Positions 86-60,742 of a stretch of DNA of 64,000 bases are shown here, one piece after another. Position 1 is the stretch's first letter; every line of letters begins with the position of its first letter. Source of the stretch: Acidobacteriota bacterium (GTDB lineage: Bacteria; Acidobacteriota; UBA6911; RPQK01; CBDAPI01); contig CBDBHK010000033.1 in assembly GCA_965205615.1 (NCBI GenBank), positions 102,822 through 166,821 of the forward strand, in the 5' to 3' direction. A model generated the notes under the pieces. That model saw only the letters and a program-made list of their open reading frames with translations. It ran no database searches and was not told the origin of the DNA. The position numbers were made by a program, and so were the translations under genes.

Positions 86-1207
86 ATGAGGAATGTCGGG
101 TTAATGGTTAGCAACCGTCGAAAATTCCTCGCGAACTCAATTGCGGGCTTTGGCCTGTTGGCGGGAGCAAGCCGATTACTAGGCCAGGCTTTTGACCACG
201 CCATCATTGGCAGCTACACCAGCATCCCGGGGTACGGCTTGGACCAAGCCATCGAACTCATTCGGCAACTAGGATTCCAAACAATTGAAATGCATCCAAT
301 GGGTGTAGCGGAGCCAAGACCGGGCCTTTCTCCGGGCTTCCAGTTCGATCGCCTGAGCGAGGAAGAAAGACGCAAGATCAAATCTGCTGTGGCAGGCTTT
401 CGCCATGTTTCAATTGAAATGCATCCAATGGGTGTAGCGGAGCCAAGACCGGGCCTTTCTCCGGGCTTCCAGTTCGATCGCCTGAGCGAGGAAGAAAGAC
501 GCAAGATCAAATCTGCTGTGGCAGGCTTTCGCCATGTTTCCACTCATTTGCCCTTTGCCGATCTGCACTGTTTCTCTGCCTATGAGCCGATTGCGGAATT
601 CTCTGTCAAACAGATCGACATTGCACTGAAGGCGAGTGCCTACATTGGCGCGGAGGTCGCGACCATCCATGCACAGGCGCCTCGGCAGCAGACCCTGGAG
701 CAGATTTGGCCTGTCATGCTCGAACGTTTCCGACGCTGGGGGGACATTGCAAAAGAGGCAGGCTTGCGACTGGCAATTGAAACCGGTTACCCCCGCTCGG
801 TGCGTGATTATGTCAGGCTGATCCAGGGAATCGACCACGAATCCGTCGGGGCCACCATTGATGTCGGCCATCAGGGCGGCTACGCCGAATTGGTCAGCAG
901 GGTCAGGCCGGAGGAGCGGGGAACCCCCAAAGGGATCAAGGCCTACAACGATGTCACTCATGAAATCATAGATCGGTTGGGCCCGAAGGTATTCCACTTC
1001 CACGTGCACGACATCGAGCCGGACACATGGGAGGAACACAAGCCGCTTTACTACGGGTTCGTAGACTACCCGCGCCTTCTCAGAAAGCTGCGCGAAATCC
1101 GCTACACCGGCCTGCTTGTGTTCGAACTCGTCGGACCCGCCTCGGAAAGAAGCAAACACCTGGCCGACAGCAAACGGAAACTGGAAGAATACCTTGCCGA
1201 AGCCTGA
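86..1207 (+). CDS. Tat-signal sugar phosphate isomerase/epimerase-like (xylose-isomerase-like TIM barrel) family protein; contains an internal 43-aa tandem duplication
   Basis: 373-aa ORF. N-terminus has a twin-arginine motif (SNRRKFLANS) followed by a hydrophobic stretch. Metal-binding-like HxH/E/D motifs (AIETGY, HFHVHD) typical of the AP-endonuclease-2/xylose-isomerase-like TIM barrel family. Inferred from motifs only. Confidence 0.5.
   Translation: MRNVGLMVSNRRKFLANSIAGFGLLAGASRLLGQAFDHAIIGSYTSIPGYGLDQAIELIRQLGFQTIEMHPMGVAEPRPGLSPGFQFDRLSEEERRKIKSAVAGFRHVSIEMHPMGVAEPRPGLSPGFQFDRLSEEERRKIKSAVAGFRHVSTHLPFADLHCFSAYEPIAEFSVKQIDIALKASAYIGAEVATIHAQAPRQQTLEQIWPVMLERFRRWGDIAKEAGLRLAIETGYPRSVRDYVRLIQGIDHESVGATIDVGHQGGYAELVSRVRPEERGTPKGIKAYNDVTHEIIDRLGPKVFHFHVHDIEPDTWEEHKPLYYGFVDYPRLLRKLREIRYTGLLVFELVGPASERSKHLADSKRKLEEYLAEA
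282..539 (+). repeat. Perfect direct tandem duplication, 2 x 129 bp (282-410 and 411-539), in frame inside the first CDS
   Basis: Read directly in the DNA: the 129-nt unit caattgaaatgcatccaatgggtgtagcgg...ctttcgccatgttt is repeated without mismatch. It encodes IEMHPMGVAEPRPGLSPGFQFDRLSEEERRKIKSAVAGFRHVS twice. Confidence 0.9.
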
Positions 1208-2068: not shown

Positions 2069-3205
2069 CTATGGTGGCGTTGGCTTGGCACTCTCTGCCA
2101 CACGTATGATCGCGTCGAGCTTCTCTTCGATCTCCGAGTCAATTTCTTCGGGTGGCACATACTGAGCGAGCTCATAAAAGCTCTTCTTTCTCATTAGATT
2201 AGGCAGGTCGAGCTTTTTGAAGTACTTCACGAACAGCGGCTCCAGGAAATCGTCGCTCACCTTGGCGTCGGTGCGCCATGGCGAGACTTTACCCAGCGTT
2301 TGCATCGCTCTCTCAACATCCTTGATGGACTCATGCATCGCGCGCATGCGCCGGTCGACTTCAGTGCTTGAAAATAGGGGTCCATGTGCTTCTTGTTCGG
2401 CCGATGCTATTGCATATCTCTCCAGAGTCGCTATGGAGCAAAAATAGTTTTCGATCTCCCGTCGCTCCCAACTTAGATATTCAATGCCATTAATCGTCGG
2501 AGTTTCATCTCCAGAGTGATCGAAAAGAACTGCGGCTTGCAGGTCCGGTAAAGCCTCTTTGAGGCCATAGTAGTGATTTCGGACCGATACCCAATGGCTC
2601 CCTACATAGTGCACAAACGGCCGTTTCAACACTCTATCAGCGTCTTTGTGGTGGAGACGCCTCGCGAACGCTTGCAATATGGCGAGGTCGGTCGAGCCTT
2701 CGAGGTAGAGCACCCATCCAGTCTGTGCTGCTTGACAATAGTGGTCGAAGCCAATCTCATTAAGCGCCTTCCGAACCTGGCTTCCCCGGTCATCAATCCG
2801 GTGCGGCGGCCCCACGAAGGCGATTACCATATCTTTTCTAGCGGCTTCGTTCAGGAGCACCTCGGAGTGGCTTGCAGCGATGATCTGGCTGCGACTCTCG
2901 GAGGCCGCATCTGTGAGCAGTTTATAGATCTCACGCTGGCGAAGAATTTCGAGGTGTGCGTCCGGCTCGTCGAGCAGGAGCACGGCGTCTGGGTTAGCGT
3001 ACATGTACGTCAGAATGAGCAGCGTCTGCTGCAAGCCCCGGCCACTGGAAGAAAGGTCGAGCGTAACCCCATGTTCCTGGTAGGTCATGGTGATCTCGCC
3101 GCGCTCCTTGATATAACGCGCGGGATTGAGCTTCGCCCCGAACAGATCCTCGATCTGCTCGACTAGCTTTTTCCCAATCCTCGGGCTGTTCCTGGTGAAT
3201 ACGGA
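2069..3205 (-). pseudogene. OLD-family ABC-type ATPase + Toprim nuclease (Gabija GajA / PARIS-like class), 5'-truncated (Walker A region missing)
   Basis: The reading frame is open from 3205 (no start codon; ORF finder reports 2069-3088). It contains an ABC Walker-B/D-loop (LLLDEPDAHL) and an H-loop (IIAASHSE). Toprim-like motifs follow: VLYLEGSTD (Glu) and AVLFDHSGDE (DxD). An N-terminal P-loop is absent. The frame ends ~28 bp from the oppositely oriented RT gene. Confidence 0.5.
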
Positions 3206-3232
3206 TTAAAGGTTGGGAAGCTACGGGAGACG

Positions 3233-4659
<1,427 letters not shown>

Positions 4660-4730
4660 ACCACCGCGCCACCTCTCGACTCTACCAGTCGAGTCGTGGA
4701 TCTCTTACGTAAAAGGCCTCGCGGGTATCC

Positions 4731-4857
4731 CGTCCTATCCGAGAATTCGGCCGCGCGTAACCCACTGTGGGAGTTCGACTTGTAAGCGCCTACAATGGCG
4801 GCATGAAGGCCGAAATCCACCAACTTCAAGTGCTACCGGGGGCCAGTCCAGGGGGTC
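4731..4857 (+). repeat. ~127-bp repeat, copy A (about 79% identical to copy B at 5700-5827), 72 nt downstream of the intron-protein stop
   Basis: Pairwise comparison by eye. Shared blocks are cgtcctatccga, taacccactgt, ttcgacttgtaagcgcc, acaatggc, gtgaaggccga, cttcaagtg, taccggg and ccagggggtc, separated by diverged blocks. Confidence 0.7.
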
Positions 4858-5314
4858 CGTCGTGGGGTAAGACCACCTTCCAAGGGTTGTGCCCAAAGTG
4901 TGCCCGCGGGAAACTCACTCCAGCTCACTCCAGCCAAAATAGCGGTTTCGGAGCGACGGAATTTCTGCTTATTTGGAAGGTACTTACAGAACCGGCTTCC
5001 AGGACTTAAAATCCTGTGGGTCGTCGGGTGGGTCGGAGAGACAAGCTAAGTGCCCGGCAATACTCAGAAAGCATGCCTACCTGAACCTGAAATTACCGAA
5101 TACTCAACCAAAGCATTCTCCTGGTCTCCCGGTGTACACGAGCGTATTGATAGCCACCTATATAGCCGCGCGAGGTGAGGGCCAAGGAGAAGCCATGGAG
5201 ACAAATTCATGAGGCCTTTTCATCTCTGGGCAAAGCGGGGCCGGAAGAAGAACAGTCCGGCTCAAAAAGGGAGCAACGCTCACAGCTCGGCGAGTGTGAA
5301 TTGTTGCTGAAGAA

Positions 5315-5662
5315 GTGATCGCTTACGGACTTCGCCGCCATCTTGTGACGCTCGGCACTAATTCTTGGACAGACAAGACAATAAGATCGCGTGCAATGCC
5401 GAAACAACGAAGCGATTTGTTACAGGAGCCTAATTTGGCAAGCGGCATCGATCTCAAGGAGCAGACCCTTGCAATGCTGCAGACGCTGACCCCCAAAGAA
5501 GAACAGATTGTTCGGATGCGCTACGGAATTGACGACGGAATCGAATGCACCCTCGAAGAAGTCGGCCAACAGTTTTCTGCGACTCCTGAGCGGGTCCGTC
5601 AGATCCAGGACCAGGCACTGCGAAAACTGCGCTACGTGTCACTCGGAGAGGAACTACCTTAG
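5315..5662 (+). pseudogene. Orphan sigma-70 (RpoD/RpoS-like) region 4 fragment
   Basis: C-terminal 75 aa (LTPKEEQIVRMRYGIDDGIECTLEEVGQQFSATPERVRQIQDQALRKLR) is a near-canonical sigma-70 region 4.1/4.2. The preceding 40 aa have no sigma homology and regions 1-3 are absent. Confidence 0.5.
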
Positions 5663-5699
5663 AGGGTTGCCCTTCCTTTGCTGCGGCAACTGCGCATGG

Positions 5700-5827
5700 C
5701 GTCCTATCCGAAAAATGAGCCGAGTCGTAACCCACTGTAGGATTTCGACTTGTAAGCGCCCACAATGGCAGGGTGAAGGCCGATACGTGCCCGCTTCAAG
5801 TGTTACCGGGACCAGTTCCAGGGGGTC
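5700..5827 (+). repeat. ~128-bp repeat, copy B (see copy A), 38 nt downstream of the sigma-70 fragment stop
   Basis: Same conserved blocks and same orientation as copy A. Flanks on both sides are unrelated. Confidence 0.7.
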
Positions 5828-6148
5828 GTCATCATCTAAAGGGAAATCCCACCCCCTAAGACTAACTTTTTTCTTTTCGACGATTGAGTAGCAATCTGCT
5901 AGCGAGGGAACAGCTTCCACTTCGTTTCTTCAGCGTCGCCGCGAGTAATCGCCTCCTGGACGTCACGACCAAGTCGGTGTGGCTTTGCGGGCTCCAGAAA
6001 GTAGAGGGTGTAAAGTCCAGGGAAGCTGATGGAGGTCGTCAGGGGGTATACAGACGGGTTCCTCGCACCTTGATTTGACGTCGCCCCTCGCGTGGTCGTG
6101 CAGGGTTGGCGAATTCCGGCCCCACCCCACCTCTGCGGGGGGCCAACT

Positions 6149-7246
6149 TTAGCGCAGCCGGAGCGGCTGGGTGAACGCGCCGTTCCCCGCCACATCCCAC
6201 ACCTCGATCCGGGCGCGGGCCTTGCCCTTGAGCTCCATGGGCCACTCGAACGTCTTCCGTCCGAACTCGCGGGTTTCGGGAAGCTCGACCGTCTGGCGAC
6301 GGCCATCGACCACCAGCTCCACGGTTCGCAGCGGAAAGGTCCATTCGAGATCAGCTTTGATCAGGTCGTTGGTCGCCTCGAAGGAGTGAATCAGCACTTC
6401 GCCGGTGGTGACGAAGAAGTCCCCCCGACGGAGGACGTCGAGGACCGGCGACCAGTCGTCAAACGTGGGCATCTTTTTCAGCCGCAGGTAATTGACGTTC
6501 ATGTGGCCGTAGATCTCGTGGGTGGAGTCAACGGTAAAGCAGTCGACCTCACCGATCAGTTTCTTGTGCTGACCCCAGCGGTTCATGTCGTCCAGGAGGT
6601 CCAGCACGCGAACGCCGAGCCGCCCGTCGGAGAGGTCGCCGGGCATGAACTTCCACCCACCCCCCAGCCAGAGAGAGTCGTCCTTGTACCAGTCACGCTC
6701 CCGGTAGGCGTCGGGGGCGGCGGACGAGGACTTGATTCTCGGGTGGGCGGTCCAGGCGAGTCCCTTGTCGCGTCGGAGGACCTTGACCATGTCGGCCTCG
6801 CTCCCGGTGTGGTAGACGTGACCGTAGGGGGCGATCTCTTCCATGAAGGGCTGGCCTTGTTTGCGGACAAGCGTGAGGTAGACGGGTTTTGGGAACAGGT
6901 AGAGCCAGTGGCCGGGCTTCTGTTTCGCGGGAGGGGGGATGTTGAGATGGGCATTGGCCTCTTCGCCGGGGAGGAGCAGGAAGCGGTGGGTGGAGTATTT
7001 CCGACACGTGTCGAACATGGCCTGGAGCTGAGGAAGACGCTTCGGACCGGAATCGCGGGGATTCCCGTCCCCGTGGAACTCCGCCAGGTGGACGATGTTG
7101 ACGCCCATGTTCTTTAAGAGCCGGGAGAACTCACCGACGCGTGACTTCCCCGCCATCTCACTGACGGTGAGCTTTGCGTGCCAGTGGCTGGTGAGGGTGA
7201 GGCGGTCTTTCATCGGCTTGAAGGTGTCACCGTGGGTGTACTGCAA
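6149..7246 (-). CDS. Hypothetical protein, possible PHP-domain metal-dependent hydrolase (CehA/McbA-like)
   Basis: 365-aa ORF with TTG start. The N-terminal SHWH motif and downstream His/Asp/Glu residues resemble PHP phosphoesterase motifs. Weak, motif-level inference only. Confidence 0.3.
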   Translation of the reverse strand: MQYTHGDTFKPMKDRLTLTSHWHAKLTVSEMAGKSRVGEFSRLLKNMGVNIVHLAEFHGDGNPRDSGPKRLPQLQAMFDTCRKYSTHRFLLLPGEEANAHLNIPPPAKQKPGHWLYLFPKPVYLTLVRKQGQPFMEEIAPYGHVYHTGSEADMVKVLRRDKGLAWTAHPRIKSSSAAPDAYRERDWYKDDSLWLGGGWKFMPGDLSDGRLGVRVLDLLDDMNRWGQHKKLIGEVDCFTVDSTHEIYGHMNVNYLRLKKMPTFDDWSPVLDVLRRGDFFVTTGEVLIHSFEATNDLIKADLEWTFPLRTVELVVDGRRQTVELPETREFGRKTFEWPMELKGKARARIEVWDVAGNGAFTQPLRLR

Positions 7247-13579: not shown

Positions 13580-13630
13580 CAGCCTTCCCGGTTCTGGAAG
13601 CCATTCACTGAAGGAAACCGAGACCTCTAG

Positions 13631-15367
13631 CCCGCATAGATCACCGATTTGGAAATGAAGGTGATTTTGGCAGGCCGGAACGGTTTTCTGAGAGTTTCGC
13701 TATCGATCCGGTCCAGGTCGAGTGATGCGGTGGTGTGGATGGTCGTGAATGGAGCGTTTTTCGGGTTCGGAAGAGCGTGACGGAATGTATTCAGGCAGAG
13801 CTCGGCCTGAGCGATGGAACGATTTCGTTTTTGGGGGCGTTTGATCGGGACAGACCTCAGCAGCGCAGAGGAATGGCCTGGAGGTTTCGAACGACGGCAG
13901 CGAAGACCTCGCTGTAGGGATAGGCTTCCGACATGGAGATCCAGACGTGGCGGACCGTGAGGCGGACCTGGGCGCCGATCTTGAGGAGCTTCAAGCGAAT
14001 CGTCTGACACTGAGCGCGAGCCAGGGGGGTCTGCTTCAGTCCGAGACGACGCAAGGCGTGCATGAGCATGTAGGCGGCGGAGGACAGATACAGCCGGAGT
14101 TGATTGGCGCGCATCGTTGCCGCGCTGGTCCGGTCGGCGAACAGACCCAACTGCTGTTCTTTTATGCGGTTCTCCATGTCGCCCCGCGCACAGTAGAAGT
14201 CTTCGTAGAGCGCGCGGGCCCCCAGGCGTTCCGGCGACAGGGAGGTGACGACGAATCGGGGATTGGCGCCTTTGTCCAGGAACTCGGCCTTGCCGACGAC
14301 GCGTCGCTCCGAGGTCCAACTGTGGCGAGTCCGGTAGCGGAAATCCTTGAACACCCGCGCCGGTCGCCCGGTGGCGTTGAACTCGGCTTCGGCCTGAGTC
14401 ATCGCTTCGGCGCTCTCTGACTTGAGCCGATCATTGTTGGCCAACCCCATCACGTAATCCACGTGATGGTCTTCACACCAGCGGAGCAAGTCATCCCGGC
14501 AAAAGCCCGAGTCGGCCCGGATGACGATCGAGACCTCCGGCCAGCTCTGCCGAATCCGGCCGACGATCCGTTCCAGTTCCTCCACCGATCCCGCGGCCCC
14601 ATCGATATTGGAACACCGCAACCGGGCGCACAGCAGATGCTCCCCCGAGAAGATGTACAGCGGGAGATAACAGTAGTGGCGGTAGTAACCGTGAAAGAAC
14701 CGGCCTTCCTGCTGGCCATGGATCGGGTCGTCGGTCGCATCCAGATCCAGCACCATCTCCTCGGGCGCCGATTCGTGGGACTCCACGAAGGCATCCACCA
14801 TCCAGCCGTCGATCCGGTCCGGGTCCATCGCGATCTTCTTGTACCGCTCCTGCTCATCGACCTCGGCGCCGGTCAACTCCAACCGGTTCAGCGTACACCT
14901 GCCCGCCAGCGCCTTCCCCCGATCTGAGGCCTGCCGCCGCCTCTCCCCCAACGGATCGGCCTTATTCACCGCCACCGCCAGCATCGGATCGGTGCGCAAC
15001 TGATCATGATCGTTCAGATCCTCGTACCCCAGACAGAGTCCGTAGATGCGCTGCCCCAACAACTCCTCGACCGTGTGTTCGATCAACCGCGGATCCCGGT
15101 GATCCCTGAAACACTCAGCCAGTCCGGCGATCAGACCCGTCCCCCTCTCGACCTCTCGCAACAGCAGCACCCCTGCATCGGAGGTGATCTTCCCGCCGTC
15201 GAACCGCGCCTTCACTTTGCGTTGAAATAGTCCGTGAAATTCGAACCTGGCTTGTTTACACTCTGTTCTCATAAGGACCGCCTCCGTTTGCGTGTGAAAA
15301 CGTTCATTCAAAACGCTTTATACCAAACAGGGCGGCCTTTTCAGGTCCCATCGGTGAGAAATGGCGG
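13631..15367 (-). mobile_element. IS1380-family insertion sequence, copy 1 (intact transposase), 4-bp CTAG target duplication
   Basis: Ends: cccgcatagatcaccgat (13631-13648) and its 13/18-matching inverted partner at 15350-15367. Flanked by ctag on both sides (13627-13630 and 15368-15371). Near-identical to the copy at 55941-57664. Confidence 0.75.
13857..15311 (-). CDS. IS1380-family DDE transposase (DDE_Tnp_1_4-like)
   Basis: 484-aa ORF. N-terminal RFDGGKITSDAGVLLLREVERGTGL is characteristic of IS1380-family transposases. DDE region and C-terminal ARGDMENRIKEQ motif present. Probable true start at MRTECKQ (15272). Confidence 0.75.
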   Translation of the reverse strand: MNERFHTQTEAVLMRTECKQARFEFHGLFQRKVKARFDGGKITSDAGVLLLREVERGTGLIAGLAECFRDHRDPRLIEHTVEELLGQRIYGLCLGYEDLNDHDQLRTDPMLAVAVNKADPLGERRRQASDRGKALAGRCTLNRLELTGAEVDEQERYKKIAMDPDRIDGWMVDAFVESHESAPEEMVLDLDATDDPIHGQQEGRFFHGYYRHYCYLPLYIFSGEHLLCARLRCSNIDGAAGSVEELERIVGRIRQSWPEVSIVIRADSGFCRDDLLRWCEDHHVDYVMGLANNDRLKSESAEAMTQAEAEFNATGRPARVFKDFRYRTRHSWTSERRVVGKAEFLDKGANPRFVVTSLSPERLGARALYEDFYCARGDMENRIKEQQLGLFADRTSAATMRANQLRLYLSSAAYMLMHALRRLGLKQTPLARAQCQTIRLKLLKIGAQVRLTVRHVWISMSEAYPYSEVFAAVVRNLQAIPLRC

Positions 15368-16243
15368 CTAGCTGTCCGCGGTGAGGCCGCCCGGTGGCCG
15401 GACAAGGACCAGAACGCGTGGCCATTCAGCATAATCTTTTCGCACCCCGAGGGTTGCCCAGCCGTTGTCGCGTGCCAGGTTCTCGACCTCTTGCAGGTTG
15501 TCGTGGGCCAACTCCAGGATGAGGCGGCCGTTATTGTGCAGCCGTTCTGGAGATCTTTCGAGAATCTCGCGGTAAAGCGCCGGCCTCCCCTCCTCGCCGA
15601 ACAAGGCCCCTCGTGGTTCATACTCGAGAACGGACCGATCGGCCTGCTCTGCGGAGGTCGGGCTCAGGTAGGGAGGATTGGACAGGATCAAGTGAAACTT
15701 CCGGGTTCCAGCGTAAGCTTGATACTTTTTGCACACGAGCCTCACTCTCTCCGTGCACCCGTACCGTCGGCAGTTTCGGGCAGCAACCTCCAGAGCAACT
15801 GGACTGGGCTCCAGGGCGGTCACCAGGATCCTGGGCTCTTCGCAGGCGAGAGAAACGGCAATGCAGCCCGAGCCGGTGCCGATGTCCAGCGCCGAAAGCT
15901 CATCCTCTTTCAGTCGGCCGGCGAGTCGGAGGGCTTCGTCCACAAGCAGTTCCGTTTCGGGTCGCGGAATCAGGACCCCGGGCCTGACTCGGAAACTGCG
16001 ACCGTAGAACTCCTGCTCTCCCGACATGTACTGGATCGGAAAGTGCTTTTGACGCAGGCGGATCAGTTGTGCATAGAGCTGCCCCTGACTATCGGTCAGC
16101 TTTGAACTCGGGGAGGTTGCGATCCAAATCGGTGCCCGCCTGAGCACCAGTCCCAAAATTGAAAAAGCGTCCACCAAGGGAATGCGGAGTCCAGAGGAGG
16201 ACAACTCATCACGGCCCAGTCGAATGGCTTCTCGAACCGTCAA
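15368..16243 (-). CDS. prmC: Release-factor glutamine N5-methyltransferase PrmC/HemK
   Basis: 291 aa. NPPY motif (LILSNPPYL) and SAM-binding [11 protein letters not shown]. Sits immediately downstream of prfA with overlapping start/stop, the conserved prfA-prmC arrangement. Confidence 0.8.
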
Positions 16244-55940: not shown

Positions 55941-57664
55941 CCCGCATAGATCACCGATAGGACCTGAAAAGGCCGCCCTGTTTGGTATAAAGCGTTTTGA
56001 ATGAAAGACTTCAAAGCCAAACGGAGGCGGCCCTTATGAGAACAGAGTGTAAACAAGACAGGTTCGAATTTCACGGACTATTTCAACGCAAAGTGAAGGC
56101 GCGGTTCGACGGCGGGAAGATCACCTCCGATGCAGGGGTGCTGCTGTTGCGAGAGGTCGAGAGGGGGACGGGTCTGATCGCCGGACTGGCTGAGTGTTTC
56201 AGGGATCACCGGGATCCGCGGTTGATCGAACACACGGTCGAGGAGTTGTTGGGGCAGCGCATCTACGGACTCTGTCTGGGGTACGAGGATCTGAACGATC
56301 ATGATCAGTTGCGCACCGATCCGATGCTGGCGGTGGCGGTGAATAAGGCCGATCCGTTGGGGGAGAGGCGGCGGCAGGCCTCAGATCGGGGGAAGGCGCT
56401 GGCGGGCAGGTGTACGCTGAACCGGTTGGAGTTGACCGGCGCCGAGGTCGATGAGCAGGAGCGGTACAAGAAGATCGCGATGGACCCGGACCGGATCGAC
56501 GGCTGGATGGTGGATGCCTTCGTGGAGTCCCACGAATCGGCGCCCGAGGAGATGGTGCTGGATCTGGATGCGACCGACGACCCGATCCATGGCCAGCAGG
56601 AAGGCCGGTTCTTTCACGGTTACTACCGCCACTACTGTTATCTCCCGCTGTACATCTTCTCGGGGGAGCATCTGCTGTGCGCCCGGTTGCGGTGTTCCAA
56701 TATCGATGGGGCCGCGGGATCGGTGGAGGAACTGGAACGGATCGTCGGCCGGATTCGGCAGAGCTGGCCGGAGGTCTCGATCGTCATCCGGGCCGACTCG
56801 GGCTTTTGCCGGGATGACTTGCTCCGCTGGTGTGAAGACCATCACGTGGATTACGTGATGGGGTTGGCCAACAATGATCGGCTCAAGTCAGAGAGAGCCG
56901 AAGCGATGACTCAGGCCGAAGCCGAGTTCAACGCCACCGGGCGACCGGCGCGGGTGTTCAAGGATTTCCGCTACCGGACTCGCCACAGTTGGACCTCGGA
57001 GCGACGCGTCGTCGGCAAGGCCGAGTTCCTGGACAAAGGCGCCAATCCCCGATTCGTCGTCACCTCCCTGTCGCCGGAACGCCTGGGGGCCCGCGCGCTC
57101 TACGAAGACTTCTACTGTGCGCGGGGCGACATGGAGAACCGCATAAAAGAACAGCAGTTGGGTCTGTTCGCCGACCGGACCAGCGCGCCAATCAACTCCG
57201 GCTGTATCTGTCCTCCGCCGCCTACATGCTCATGCACGCCTTGCGTCGTCTCGGACTGAAGCAGACCCCCCTGGCTCGCGCTCAGTGTCAGACGATTCGC
57301 TTGAAGCTCCTCAAGATCGGCGCCCAGGTCCGCCTCACGGTCCGCCACGTCTGGATCTCCATGTCGGAAGCCTATCCCTACAGCGAGGTCTTCGCTGCCG
57401 TCGTTCGAAACCTCCAGGCCATTCCTCTGCGCTGCTGAGGTCTGTCCCGATCAAACGCCCCCAAAAACGAAATCGTTCCATCGCTCAGGCCGAGCTCTGC
57501 CTGAATACATTCCGTCACGCTCTTCCGAACCCGAAAAACGCTCCATTCACGACCATCCACACCACCGCATCACTCGACCTGGACCGGATCGATAGCGAAA
57601 CTCTCAGAAAACCGTTCCGGCCTGCCAAAATCACCTTCATTTCCAAATCGGTGATCTATGCGGG
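55941..57664 (+). mobile_element. IS1380-family insertion sequence, copy 2 (inverted relative to copy 1; transposase inactivated by 13-bp deletion)
   Basis: Perfect 18-bp terminal inverted repeats cccgcatagatcaccgat (55941-55958) / atcggtgatctatgcggg (57647-57664). Flanks ctaa / ctag. Internal sequence near-identical to copy 1. Confidence 0.8.
55997..57438 (+). pseudogene. IS1380-family transposase with 13-nt deletion (gcaacgatgcgcg missing after 57187) causing frameshift
   Basis: Direct DNA comparison with copy 1: accagcgcg|ccaatc here versus accagcgcg-gcaacgatgcgcg-ccaatc in copy 1. The deletion is flanked by a gcgcg microhomology. The ORF splits into 55997-57259 and 56989-57438. Confidence 0.8.
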
Positions 57665-57667
57665 CTA

Positions 57668-58806
57668 GTGGTGAGACATAGAAGTAACACTATAGTTTCT
57701 TCCAAATGTAAGGCCTCGGATTTTCATTGAGGTAGCTGATGCCCTTCTGCAGCCCCGCTTCGATTTGTGCCGGTGTCCGATAATCGGTGTTCTGCAAGGC
57801 GGTCAGGTGTAGGGTCGCAAAGTAGGATTCGATCAAATTGAGCCAGGAACTATTGGTGGGCGTCCAATGCAGTTGAATTCGCCGGCAGTGCTGGGCCAAG
57901 AATTTGCGGACTGGCGGAGCCTTGTGTGGGCGCTCAGATTGTCCAGAATGAGATGGATTCGCCCTTCGGGCCACTCCCGCAGGACCACCTCCTGCAGAAA
58001 GGCCCGACAGTTGTCGCTGTTTTTGTTGGGAGTTGAGCGGCCCACGGCCCGACCGGTGTGAGGAGAAAATGCGGCGAAGAACTGCAGAACTCCATGCTTG
58101 CGTTGGTAGCGGTTGGATCGGGGGGCGGCGCGGACTCCCCAGCTGCGCCCGCCCCGCGGAATGGTCTGCAAAGGTCCCAACTCGTCGAAGCAGACCACGG
58201 GGCCATCGTCCGGAGGATGCCGATAGAGCCGGATTATGGCGTTTTTTTTACTTCGTAGTCCGGGTCGGTACTCCGGCACCAGCTTTGACCGGTCAGAAAA
58301 CGCAGCCCATGGCGATGAAGAATGCGCCGGATGGTCTCGCGGCTCAGCACCTCTTCTTGGGCGCGCAGGTAGCCTTCCAGCTTGATCAGCGACCAGGTGG
58401 TAAAGGGCAAACCCAGATCCGGAGGGCGGGAGGTGGCCGCCTCGATCACCCGTGTTTCGGTCTTTTGATCGTAGAGTCGGGGTCGGCCCGGCCGCGGGAG
58501 TCCCAGCAGACGAGGCAATCCCTCGCTCTGGAAACGCTTGGCCCATGCGTGGGCGTTGGTGTAATGCAGACCCGTGATTACAGAAGCTTGCGCGAGGTTG
58601 TAGCCTGCCGCCAAAAGCCAGATCAAGCGACATCGGCGAAAAACCGAAGCGGAAGTCTTTTCGGCCCTCAGCAGACGTTGCAGTTCGAGCAGTTCGTCCG
58701 CCGCGAGGGATCGCAGTGGAAACCGTTTGTTGGCCATTGACTGCGATCATACTATGCGGCCTCTTTTCAGGCAATTAAATATAGTAGTATTATGTGTCAC
58801 GCCACT
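57668..58806 (-). mobile_element. IS630 (Tc1/mariner)-family insertion sequence, TA-flanked, transposase frameshifted
   Basis: Imperfect terminal inverted repeats gtggtgagacatagaagtaacactatag (57668-) and ctatagtagtattatgtgtcacgccac (-58806). TA on both flanks (57666-57667; 58807-58808). 1139 bp. Confidence 0.65.
57690..58737 (-). pseudogene. IS630-family DDE transposase, split over three reading frames
   Basis: HTH N-terminus (58234-58737: RCRLIWLLAAGYNLAQASVITGLHYTNAHAWAKRF). DDE core (57833-58774 frame). C-terminus (57690-57974: WLNLIESYFATL). At least two frame changes. Confidence 0.65.
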
Positions 58807-60121: not shown

Positions 60122-60742
60122 TGTGCCGCAGCAAGCGGCGTGAGAGATGGGAGTAGGCCTCCCGCAACCGGCTTGCAGGAGCAGGTTGCAAACCACCGTA
60201 AGTGGCTGTGGTCAAAAGCCGCGGTCGTGAGCGTTACGGAAAAGGTGCTCTAGAAGCATCAGGTGTGGATCAGGAAGACGAACACAAGTGAACCACCGTT
60301 CAAGTGCCGAAAGGACGAGATGGTGTCGAAACCGGGGAGTTGATGTTGCCCCGGGACGAATCTGGCGGAAACCTGTCTACTGGCCAGGTGGCACCCGGCA
60401 TAGAGGTGGCGTGAGCTTGATCTGGGCTCTCATGTTGAACTGCGGGAACCTGGAGCAACGATGCTAAGAGAAAGGCACAAGCAGAGAACCTGCGAGGCCG
60501 ACAGTATCGAAGCGTTGCCCAGGGGCGGACAAGCTCGTAGTAGCGATGAGGCTGTCGTAATGGCAGCGGAGCGAAGGGGCTTGGTCACTCGGCTACAGAC
60601 AAGCGGCCAACTGCTAGGCAGGAGGAGCCCTTGAAAGTAGCAAAGCCATTTTGTGGCTTGAGTGATAGGAGCCGGATGAGCTGAGAGGTTCACGTCCGGT
60701 TCTTGGAGGGGCTGGGGGTGAGACTCCCCCGGCCTACTCAAC
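60122..60742 (+). mobile_element. ORF-less group II intron (621 nt) inserted in IS3-A orfB
   Basis: 5' GUGUG (60122-60126). 3' end ...AAC (60742). Domain V gagccggatgagctgagaggttcacgtccggttct (60669-60703) with AGC triad, G-U pair, AC bulge and GAGA tetraloop. Domain VI hairpin ggggctggggg-tgagact-cccccggcc with bulged A 60736, 7 nt from the 3' end. Candidate EBS1 TGATGT (60351-60356, in a ccgggg/ccccgg hairpin loop) complementary to the last 6 exon nt ACATCA. No RT ORF inside. Confidence 0.75.

What the first reader, a model, noticed from the sequence alone, without database searches (positions are those of the whole stretch)
4731..5827. Pair of diverged ~130-bp direct repeats, each sitting just downstream of a gene fragment
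Copy A (4731-4857, 72 nt after the RT stop) and copy B (5700-5827, 38 nt after the sigma-fragment stop) share ~79% identity. Strictly conserved blocks (taacccactgt, ttcgacttgtaagcgcc, gtgaaggccga, cttcaagtg, taccggg, ccagggggtc) alternate with freely diverged blocks. This pattern is more typical of a structured RNA or protein-recognised element than of a decaying duplicate. I could not fold it into a group II domain V/VI, tRNA, or a riboswitch I recognise, so its identity is open. The candidates are an intron 3'-end remnant, a small RNA, or an attachment or recombination site.
Basis: seen in the sequence. Interest (0 to 1): 0.5.

Follow-up and report, generated by a model that had tools for sequence, protein, structure and literature searches.

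The report
Truncated insertion-sequence left ends
The two ~130-bp repeats are leftover left-hand ends of an IS481-like insertion sequence (terminal inverted repeat, upstream region and first codons of its transposase gene), which is ordinary mobile-DNA debris rather than a new RNA or recombination system.

Summary
Window 4731-4857 and 5700-5827 are 82% identical (E 2e-29), and the window holds no third copy.

The repeat is not an RNA, an intron remnant or a local duplication. A metagenome contig (L031) holds a complete 1,521-bp insertion sequence. It has perfect 26-bp terminal inverted repeats (CCGTCCTATCCGAAAACTCGGTCGAG) and an rve_3/IS481-like transposase. Both window copies align to its left end over about 125 nt at roughly 80-85% identity.

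- The terminal repeat is at 4730-4755.
- A TACAAT box is at 4791-4796.
- The transposase start codon is ATG 4803 in copy A and GTG 5773 in copy B.

Eleven copies from several genomes all begin at (C)CGTCCTATCC with unrelated left flanks and stop at different points. One is cut by another IS.

Copy A runs on to 4942 into a second repeat whose last ~70 nt match the right end of an IS1182-family element. The nearby group II intron is an independent insertion that differs between strains. It sits 45 nt upstream of copy A, and sister strains lack it.

Eight copies show no covariation, and Rfam has no match. Why the same IS481-like/IS1182-like junction recurs in several genomes is unexplained.

Overall this is ordinary and of low interest.

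The parts
4730..4857 (+). Copy A: left-end fragment (about nt 1-125) of an IS481-like insertion sequence ('ISx'), with no transposase body and no right end
   Evidence: nhmmer with the complete L031 IS as query hits window 4731-4851 (IS positions 2-123, E 5e-18). The global alignment is about 80-85% identical. It starts at the same nucleotide as 10 other copies.
4730..4755 (+). Left terminal inverted repeat (IRL) of copy A: CCGTCCTATCCGAGAATTCGGCCGCG
   Evidence: It corresponds to the perfect 26-bp inverted repeat that bounds the intact IS in L031 (4658-4683 / 6153-6178).
4791..4796 (+). TACAAT box 6 nt upstream of the transposase start; possible -10 element (inferred only)
   Evidence: The box is conserved in most copies. 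No matching -35 was found, and the consensus scan did not call a promoter here.
4803..4857 (+). Remnant of the first ~18 codons of the transposase gene (MKAEIHQLQVLPG...), no longer followed by transposase sequence
   Evidence: It aligns with the start of orfA in the L031 IS (ATG 4732, MKADTYPLQVL...).
4858..4942 (+). Right-hand module of the 212-nt composite unit. It has subterminal repeats (TGTGCCC x2, CTCACTCCAG x2) and the terminus ...CCAGCCAAAATAG. The last ~70 nt are homologous to the right end of an IS1182-family element.
   Evidence: Local alignment with the L021 IS1182-family right end scores 27 against 7.4+-1.5 in shuffles (0/500). The module is shared with L001, L002 and copy C. The decamer tandem is reported.
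4686..4729 (+). Stretch between the intron 3' end and the IS terminus. It belongs to an older repeated sequence, shared with copy C of the sister strains, into which both the IS fragment and the intron are set.
   Evidence: A-long and C-long align from GAAATACT|CAGTCGAG onward.
5700..5833 (+). Copy B: the same IS left-end fragment (IRL 5700-5724, CACAAT 5761-5766, GTG start 5773), cut off at about nt 128-133
   Evidence: nhmmer hits window 5700-5819 (IS positions 2-122, E 1e-17).
3205..4685 (+). 5'-truncated group II intron (frameshifted RT/maturase, domains V/VI at 4532-4685). It is an independent insertion upstream of copy A, not part of the repeat.
   Evidence: Rfam RF00029 matches 4532-4685 and Pfam finds RVT_1+GIIM. 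The complete 2,000-nt intron is in L015/L019 and is absent from L018/L020.
5294..5671 (+). Separate ~370-nt repeat family carrying a 75-aa sigma-70 region-4-only ORF (5435-5662). It lies next to copy B by chance.
   Evidence: Copies 79-85% identical occur in unrelated contexts without the A/B element.

Best explanation
The repeated ~128-bp unit is the left end of an IS481-like (IS3/IS481 superfamily, DDE/rve) insertion sequence, here called ISx. It consists of the 26-bp terminal inverted repeat, about 45 nt of upstream or leader sequence with a TACAAT box, and the first ~18 codons of the transposase gene.

Shown:
- Both window copies are fragments. They have no transposase body and no right inverted repeat.
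- Copy A is fused at about nt 125 to an 85-nt segment related to the right end of an IS1182-family element.
- Copy B stops a few nt after that same point.

Inferred:
- The block-wise conservation reflects past selection on working IS copies, acting on the terminal repeat (the usual transposase-binding site), the expression signals and the start of the coding region, before these fragments were cut off.
- It does not reflect any present function at this locus.
- The fragments are now inert, apart from possibly acting as recombination homology or carrying an outward-facing promoter.
For: 1. L031 holds an intact element at 4658-6178 (1,521 bp). It has 100% complementary 26-bp terminal inverted repeats and a transposase with rve_3/HTH domains. 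The best NCBIfam matches are IS481 (2.8e-26) and IS3 (7e-22).
2. Window copies A and B match IS positions 2-123 and 2-122 (E 5e-18 and 1e-17) and no other part of it. The alignment places the conserved ATGAAGGCCGA block on the transposase start codon.
3. Eleven copies from at least five assemblies all begin at (C)CGTCCTATCC with unrelated left flanks and end after 30 to 215 nt.
4. One copy (L034) is cut at nt 73 exactly by the terminal repeat of a second IS481-like IS, whose intact form is seen in L029.
5. In L031 the same 26 nt occur inverted at the far end of the transposase gene.
6. There is no coding signal beyond the first codons. Indels are not multiples of three and substitutions are not concentrated at third positions.
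7. There is no RNA signal.
Against: - No target-site duplication could be shown for the intact L031 copy or for any fragment.
- The L031 transposase reading frame is split by a 1-nt shift. This may be an assembly error, because the contig name suggests about 3x coverage.
- The NCBIfam scores are below the curated family cut-offs, so the family assignment (IS481 or IS3) is approximate.
- No intact ISx lies in the 64-kb window, and the rest of the source genome could not be searched.
- Five copies (A, B, L001a, L002, L029) lose similarity to the intact IS at the same point, about nt 121-125. Four of them (A, L001a, L002, L029) continue into the same foreign segment, while B breaks off a few nt later. 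Independent decay does not predict this.
Confidence: 0.85

Rival explanations
1. Copy A, and by descent copy B, belongs to a ~212-nt chimeric non-autonomous element. Its left part is the IS481-like left end (nt 1-125) and its right part is an IS1182-like right end (85 nt). The chimera has itself spread as a unit, MITE-like, through cross-mobilisation or one-ended transposition. This refines the main explanation rather than excluding it.
For: The same internal junction occurs in A, L001a, L002 and, truncated, L029. Similarity to the intact IS ends at nt 116-125 in A, B, L001a, L002 and L029. The three full-length units have unrelated flanks on both sides and end at ...CCAA(N)(N)TAG or CAG. In L001 the unit follows the N-terminal half of an IS1182-family transposase in the same orientation.
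Against: The unit has no terminal inverted repeat. The reverse complement of the IRL against the right tails scores at chance; only A is marginal, with 29-74 of 2000 shuffles reaching its score. No target-site duplications were found. Only three complete copies are known. No transposase is known to act on two unrelated ends.
Confidence: 0.25
2. The repeat encodes a small structured RNA or a cis-regulatory RNA, on either strand.
For: Conserved and variable blocks alternate. A group II intron inserted upstream in the same orientation suggests the region may be transcribed on the + strand (inference).
Against: Rfam has no match at the gathering score or at E<=10. Fold z-scores are +0.6 to +2.0 on both strands. 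RNAalifold on 8 copies gives -8.5 and -9.3 kcal/mol, a positive covariation term and 0 or 1 compensatory pairs. No terminator was found. The conserved blocks are accounted for by the IS terminus, the TACAAT box and the start codon.
Confidence: 0.03
3. The two copies are a simple local segmental duplication that is now decaying.
For: There are two copies 970 bp apart in direct orientation.
Against: The flanks are unrelated on both sides. The same unit, with the same 5' boundary, occurs in unrelated contexts in other genomes. Substitutions avoid the same blocks in all copies.
Confidence: 0.02
4. The repeat is part of the group II intron (a 3' remnant), or is its specific homing site.
For: Copy A lies 45 nt after the intron's 3' end. 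A second copy of the same intron (L017) also lies about 150 nt upstream of an ISx-related transposase gene.
Against: Domains V/VI end at 4685. The intron-less strains L018/L020 have the element unchanged. The two occupied sites share only about AAATAYT|CAGYCGA around the insertion point, which lies outside the 128-nt repeat. Copies B, L001, L002 and L029-L034 have no intron nearby.
Confidence: 0.02
5. The pair is the template and variable repeat of a diversity-generating retroelement, or an attC/att site array.
For: An RT gene lies upstream of copy A, and copy B follows a small ORF.
Against: The RT is a group II intron maturase-type RT. The 23 mismatches between A and B are of all kinds, not adenine-specific. 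There is no hairpin symmetry of the attC type, since the folds are no better than shuffles. No integrase is nearby.
Confidence: 0.01

Closest known systems
IS481 family insertion sequences (IS3/IS481 superfamily, DDE 'rve' transposases)
   Same: The intact relative in L031 is 1.5 kb. It has 26-bp terminal inverted repeats and what is probably one transposase gene, with an N-terminal HTH and an rve_3 catalytic core. Its best NCBIfam match is IS481. The window repeats are the left terminus of such an element.
   Different: Scores are below NCBIfam's curated cut-off, and IS3 scores almost as well. The termini start CCGTCC. From my own memory of the literature, many IS3/IS481 members have TG...CA ends. 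No target duplication was seen. The window copies are fragments without a transposase.
Solo IS ends / IS remnants in 'junkyard' regions
   Same: These are fragments that keep one terminus, lack the transposase, lie among other mobile-element debris (a truncated intron, a transposase fragment, IS200 and IS481-like insertions), and are cut at variable inner positions.
   Different: Five of the copies share the same inner breakpoint. Four of those also share the same adjoining foreign segment, which simple independent decay does not predict.
MITEs (miniature inverted-repeat transposable elements)
   Same: They are short (about 212 nt), non-coding and multi-copy, with unrelated flanks, and they derive from IS sequence.
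   Different: There is no inverted repeat between the two ends and no target-site duplication, so the defining features of a MITE are not met.
IS1182 family insertion sequences (right end)
   Same: The last ~70 nt of copy A's extension match the sequence that ends ~228 nt after an IS1182-family transposase gene in L021-L024. The match includes paired subterminal repeats and the terminus CCAGCCAAGATAG. In L001 the unit follows the N-terminal half of an IS1182-family transposase.
   Different: Only the last 70 nt are significantly similar, and the upstream 210 nt are not. No full-length IS1182 copy carrying this exact end was available, and no inverted copy at a left end was found. One described family member has 16-bp inverted repeats and 4-bp duplications (PMC3281130).

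Membership tests
Insertion sequence of the IS481/IS3 superfamily (the intact relative, L031) | Terminal inverted repeats bounding the element | tested here: met
   The 26-nt arms at L031 4658-4683 and 6153-6178 are 100% complementary.
Insertion sequence of the IS481/IS3 superfamily (the intact relative, L031) | DDE transposase with an rve-type catalytic core between the repeats | tested here: met
   Pfam rve_3 scores 6.9e-10 (39 bits, cut-off 26.5), with HTH_21 and HTH_32 below their cut-offs. The reading frame is interrupted by a 1-nt shift, possibly an assembly error.
Insertion sequence of the IS481/IS3 superfamily (the intact relative, L031) | Score above the curated family threshold (IS481 or IS3 equivalog) | tested here: not met
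   IS481 scores 92.7 bits against a cut-off of 224, and IS3 scores 78.1 against 160. It is a distant member or a sister group, so the family name is approximate.
Insertion sequence of the IS481/IS3 superfamily (the intact relative, L031) | Target-site duplication flanking the insertion | tested here: inconclusive
   The flanks ...GGCTTCC| and |CTTTGACC show no clear direct repeat. Joining the flanks did not restore the interrupted IS6-type gene.
Insertion sequence of the IS481/IS3 superfamily (the intact relative, L031) | Several copies with unrelated flanks | tested here: met
   Eleven left-end copies lie in different contexts. Two separate protein clusters (P0139, P0142) show the left end followed by the same downstream translated sequence, which in L031 overlaps the start of the transposase gene.
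Window copies A and B as complete insertion sequences | Presence of a transposase gene and of the second inverted repeat | tested here: not met
   tblastn with the ISx transposase finds nothing in the window. nhmmer with the whole IS hits only positions 2-123, on the + strand, twice. The copies are therefore fragments.
MITE | Terminal inverted repeats at both ends and a target-site duplication | tested here: not met
   Comparison of the reverse-complemented IRL with the right tails of A, L001a, L002 and C scores at chance level, and no duplications are seen.
Known structured RNA family (Rfam 15) | Covariance-model match | tested here: not met
   There is no match on the repeat at the gathering score or at E<=10.
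Novel structured RNA | Conserved secondary structure supported by compensatory changes and better-than-random folding | tested here: not met
   Fold z-scores are +0.6 to +2.0. With 8 copies there are 0-1 compensatory pairs and a covariation term of +0.75. Power is limited by the number of copies.
Group II intron (3' part, domains V/VI) | Domain V/VI structure within the repeat, and dependence on the intron | tested here: not met
   Domains V/VI lie at 4532-4685, upstream of the repeat. The element is intact in the intron-less strains L018/L020.
Diversity-generating retroelement TR/VR pair | Mismatches confined to adenines of the template repeat, plus a DGR-type RT | tested here: not met
   The mismatch spectrum covers all base pairs (A>G 4, G>A 5, C>G 3, and others). 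The RT carries a GIIM maturase domain.
IS1182 family right end (for 4873-4942 only) | Position at the terminus downstream of an IS1182-family transposase gene | tested here: met
   In L021 the transposase C-terminus reaches NCBIfam IS1182 position 487/488. The homologous ~70 nt end 228 nt downstream of it. The same end abuts different DNA in L022.
IS1182 family right end (for 4873-4942 only) | Matching inverted repeat at the left end of the same element | tested here: not met
   No significant inverted match lies upstream of the L001 transposase start. There is only a weak direct similarity, reached by 4 of 1000 shuffles.

The most novel reading that the evidence does not exclude
The 212-nt unit of copy A may be a chimeric non-autonomous mobile element. 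It joins the left end of an IS481-like IS to the right end of an IS1182-family IS, and it would have spread to new sites in several soil-bacterial genomes although its two ends belong to unrelated transposase systems. That would imply one-ended transposition or cross-mobilisation. The recurrent junction, the unrelated flanks, and the lack of terminal inverted repeats or target duplications do not exclude this reading.
Probability: 0.15. Interest if true: 0.35.

Novelty: new member of a known kind. Interest (0 to 1): 0.12.

Why it matters
It matters little beyond annotation. The result identifies an apparently undescribed IS481-like insertion sequence and its fragments in uncultured soil bacteria; the two named source genomes are Acidobacteriota MAGs.

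It also explains a pattern that looks like a structured RNA. Block-wise conservation in a short non-coding repeat can be the imprint of a terminal repeat, expression signals and a start codon inherited from once-active IS copies.

The locus is a useful example of layered mobile-element debris. Within 3 kb it holds an IS481-like end, an IS1182-like end, a group II intron that is present in some strains and absent in others, and a repeated sigma-region-4 mini-gene.

The one open point of some interest is the recurrent chimeric junction.

Tried and rejected
- **Known RNA families.** Rfam at gathering and permissive thresholds found nothing on the repeat. ARAGORN found no tRNA or tmRNA.
- **RNA structure.** Single-sequence folds on both strands were no better than shuffles. 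RNAalifold on 3, 5 and 8 copies gave weak structures without covariation.
- **Coding tests.** Three frames are open by chance. Indels are not multiples of three and there is no third-position excess.
- **Signal scans.** The promoter and terminator scan called nothing on the repeat.
- **DNA pattern scans.**
  - Genome contigs gave two true loci.
  - Metagenome contigs gave only chance matches.
  - Four viral scans gave chance matches or nothing.
  - blastn against plasmids and phages gave nothing.
- **Protein searches.** A search with the minus-strand frame found nothing. The plus-strand frame against cluster representatives was the search that led to the further copies.
- **Retroposon idea.** I considered a retroposon-like origin because of the fixed 5' end and variable 3' ends. 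I dropped it because every probe lay in the first 130 nt. Given that bias, 0 of 8 copies truncated at the 5' side is not significant (about p 0.2, my estimate), and an intact DNA transposon with inverted repeats was then found.
- **Other mechanisms.** I considered attC or integron cassettes, DGR TR/VR, a tRNA-like integration target, an IS200/IS605 left end and an omega/bridge-RNA-type guide. Each was rejected on structure, mismatch spectrum or context.
- **Extent of the IS1182 homology.** I tested whether the whole long form of copy A is homologous to the IS1182-family 3' region. Only the last ~70 nt are significant.
- **Inverted repeats and target duplications.** I looked for these around the composite unit and found none.
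- **Plasmid relatives.** A tblastn of the IS1182-type transposase against plasmids gave only ~43% identical relatives with short 3' regions, which was uninformative.

Full report
**Observation.**

The repeat finder pairs 4756-4857 with 5726-5827 (81%) and 4731-4753 with 5700-5722 (83%), one base out of register. blastn gives 82% identity over 129 columns with E 2e-29. Neither blastn nor nhmmer finds a third copy in the 64 kb.

The upstream neighbours are as described. One is a frameshifted group II intron RT/maturase with domains V/VI at 4532-4685. The other is a 75-88-aa ORF made only of sigma-70 region 4.

- Rfam finds nothing on the repeat, at gathering scores or at E<=10. There is no tRNA or tmRNA.
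- Folding either strand of either copy gives energies no better than dinucleotide shuffles, with z +0.6 to +2.0.
- Several reading frames are open, but substitutions show no third-position excess, and the copies differ by single-base indels.
- The 23 mismatches between the copies are of all kinds, so this is not a DGR template/variable pair.

**More copies.**

A pattern built from two conserved blocks found two loci in Acidobacteriota MAGs, L001 and L002. Metagenome and viral scans gave only chance hits. These loci showed three things:
- The unit is longer than reported. Copy A continues to ...CCAGCCAAAATAG at 4942, and copy B is the shorter one.
- In L001 an IS200/IS605 element is inserted into the unit, and the unit directly follows the N-terminal 228 codons of an IS1182-family transposase.
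- L001 holds a further 64-nt copy with the same first base.

**Sister strains and the intron.**

Looking up window proteins gave contigs of sister strains about 99.4-99.9% identical to the window.
- In L015/L019 the group II intron is complete (2,000 nt, RT intact).
- In L018/L020 the intron is absent and the sequence is continuous...GGGTCGAAATACT|CAGTCGAGTCGTGG....

The intron is therefore a recent insertion that differs between strains. It sits 45 nt upstream of copy A, and copy A is not an intron remnant. Another copy of the same intron (99.8% identical) lies in a different place (L017). The two sites resemble each other only around the insertion point, AAATAYT|CAGYCGA.

The sister strains also carry a third, diverged paralogue, copy C. 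It shares the 45 nt upstream of copy A and the right-hand 85 nt, but has a different, shorter middle.

**Identification.**

A profile of the plus-strand translation of A and B, searched against 1.8 billion cluster representatives, found predicted ORFs that run across further copies. I fetched their contigs.

L031 holds an intact element at 4658-6178 (1,521 bp):
- It is bounded by perfectly complementary 26-nt inverted repeats, CCGTCCTATCCGAAAACTCGGTCGAG.
- It encodes a transposase with rve_3 and HTH domains. The best NCBIfam matches are IS481 (2.8e-26) and IS3 (7e-22), both below the curated cut-offs.
- The reading frame has a 1-nt shift. From its name the contig has about 3x coverage, so this may be an assembly error.

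Used as a query, this element hits the window twice and only with its left end. Positions 2-123 match 4731-4851, and positions 2-122 match 5700-5819.

- CGTCCTATCCGA is the terminal repeat (window 4730-4755).
- TTCGACTTGTAAGCGCC and TACAAT lie just upstream of the start codon.
- (A/G)TGAAGGCCGA is the transposase start (ATG 4803 in A, GTG 5773 in B).
- CTTCAAGTG encodes residues 8-10 (L-Q-V).

The window contains no ISx transposase sequence.

**Copy census.**

Eleven copies all start at (C)CGTCCTATCC with unrelated left flanks. They end after about 30, 55, 64, 73, 90, 117, 130 and 150 nt, and three run the full ~212-215 nt.
- The 30-nt copy is the right inverted repeat of the intact IS.
- The 117-nt figure is the intact IS itself. 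It marks where its sequence departs from the window type.
- The 73-nt copy (L034) is cut exactly by the terminal repeat of a second IS481-like IS, which is intact in L029.

I had first read the pattern of a fixed 5' end and variable 3' ends as a hint of reverse transcription. All my probes lay in the first 130 nt, however, so the asymmetry is not significant. The intact element is a DNA transposon.

With eight copies, RNAalifold still finds only -8.5 and -9.3 kcal/mol, a positive covariation term and 0-1 compensatory pairs.

**The right-hand part of copy A.**

The last ~70 nt are TTGTGCCC..TGTGCCCGCGGGAAA, then CTCACTCCAG twice, then CCAAAATAG. They are significantly similar to the sequence that ends 228 nt after an IS1182-family transposase gene in L021-L024, scoring 27 against 7.4+-1.5 in shuffles (0/500). 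In L022 that sequence stops at the same GATAG against different DNA.

The paired short repeats differ between the two lineages in a matched way: TGTGCCC x2 in one against TGTAACC x2 in the other. The rest of the unit is not significantly similar to that IS.

Copy A is therefore a chimera of an IS481-like left end (to about nt 125) and an IS1182-like right end.

**What remains unexplained.**

Five copies (A, B, L001a, L002, L029) lose similarity to the intact IS at the same point. Four of them (A, L001a, L002, L029) continue into the same foreign segment, while B breaks off a few nt past the junction. The three complete units have unrelated flanks on both sides.

This suggests the chimera was copied as a unit. 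However, it has no inverted repeat between its ends and no target duplication. I could not scan the source genomes to count copies.

**Verdict.**

The finding is a pair of truncated left ends of an IS481-like insertion sequence, embedded in a patch of other mobile-element debris. It is not a structured RNA, not an intron remnant and not a plain local duplication.

The element belongs to a known kind, and the particular IS appears undescribed. Interest is low.

Noticed in passing
window 5294-5671: A ~370-nt repeat family carries a 75-aa ORF consisting only of sigma-70 region 4, RpoD-like. Copies 79-85% identical lie in unrelated contexts in related genomes (L021-L027). ORF lengths stay at 69-76 aa, and dN/dS is about 0.3-0.7. 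It could be a mobile mini-gene or a propagated rpoD 3' fragment.
   Followed up: partly
window 3205-4685; L015 15445-17444; L020 5238-5241: A group II intron (Rfam D1D4-4 type) is complete in two sister-strain contigs, absent from two others, and in the window cut at 3205 and joined to a 5'-truncated AAA_21 ATPase gene (2069-3088, minus strand). A 99.8% identical copy in L017 lies about 150 nt upstream of an ISx-related transposase gene.
   Followed up: partly
window 282-540: A perfect 129-bp tandem duplication (2.0 copies, 100% identity) lies inside ORF 86-1207 and duplicates 43 residues in frame. It may be a recent duplication or an assembly artefact.
   Followed up: no
window 13627-15371 and 55951-57672: There are two copies of a ~1.7-kb IS with a DDE_Tnp_1_4 transposase. 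Sister strains L018/L020 carry an extra copy inserted at the position equivalent to window ~7294.
   Followed up: no
window 60149-60264 and 60667-60742: A second group II intron signature of another class (D1D4-2 plus domains V/VI) has only ~400 nt between the two hits. It looks like an ORF-less or degenerate intron.
   Followed up: no
window 4914-4934; L020 5467-5496: The decamer CTCACTCCAG is present twice in the window but three times in the sister strains and in copy C, so its copy number differs between nearly identical strains.
   Followed up: partly
L020 2513-2750 (= L015 20167-19934, minus strand): Copy C is a diverged paralogue of the long form of copy A that lacks the IS481-like terminal repeat. 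It carries an unoccupied match to the intron target (GGGGAAATACT|CAGTCGAGCC) and is followed by a C-terminal amidohydrolase gene fragment.
   Followed up: partly
L029 6395-7796; L034 5538 onward: A second IS481-like IS has the terminal repeat TCCCCCCGAAAAATCCCGTCCA, which shares the motifs CCGAAAA and CCGTCC with the ISx repeat. One copy is inserted into an ISx left-end fragment.
   Followed up: no
L001 4297-4956: An IS200/IS605-family element (Y1 transposase, terminal hairpins CCCCGGCTCTGCCGGGG and CCCCCGGCTTTGCCGGGGG) is inserted into the composite unit at about nt 117.
   Followed up: no
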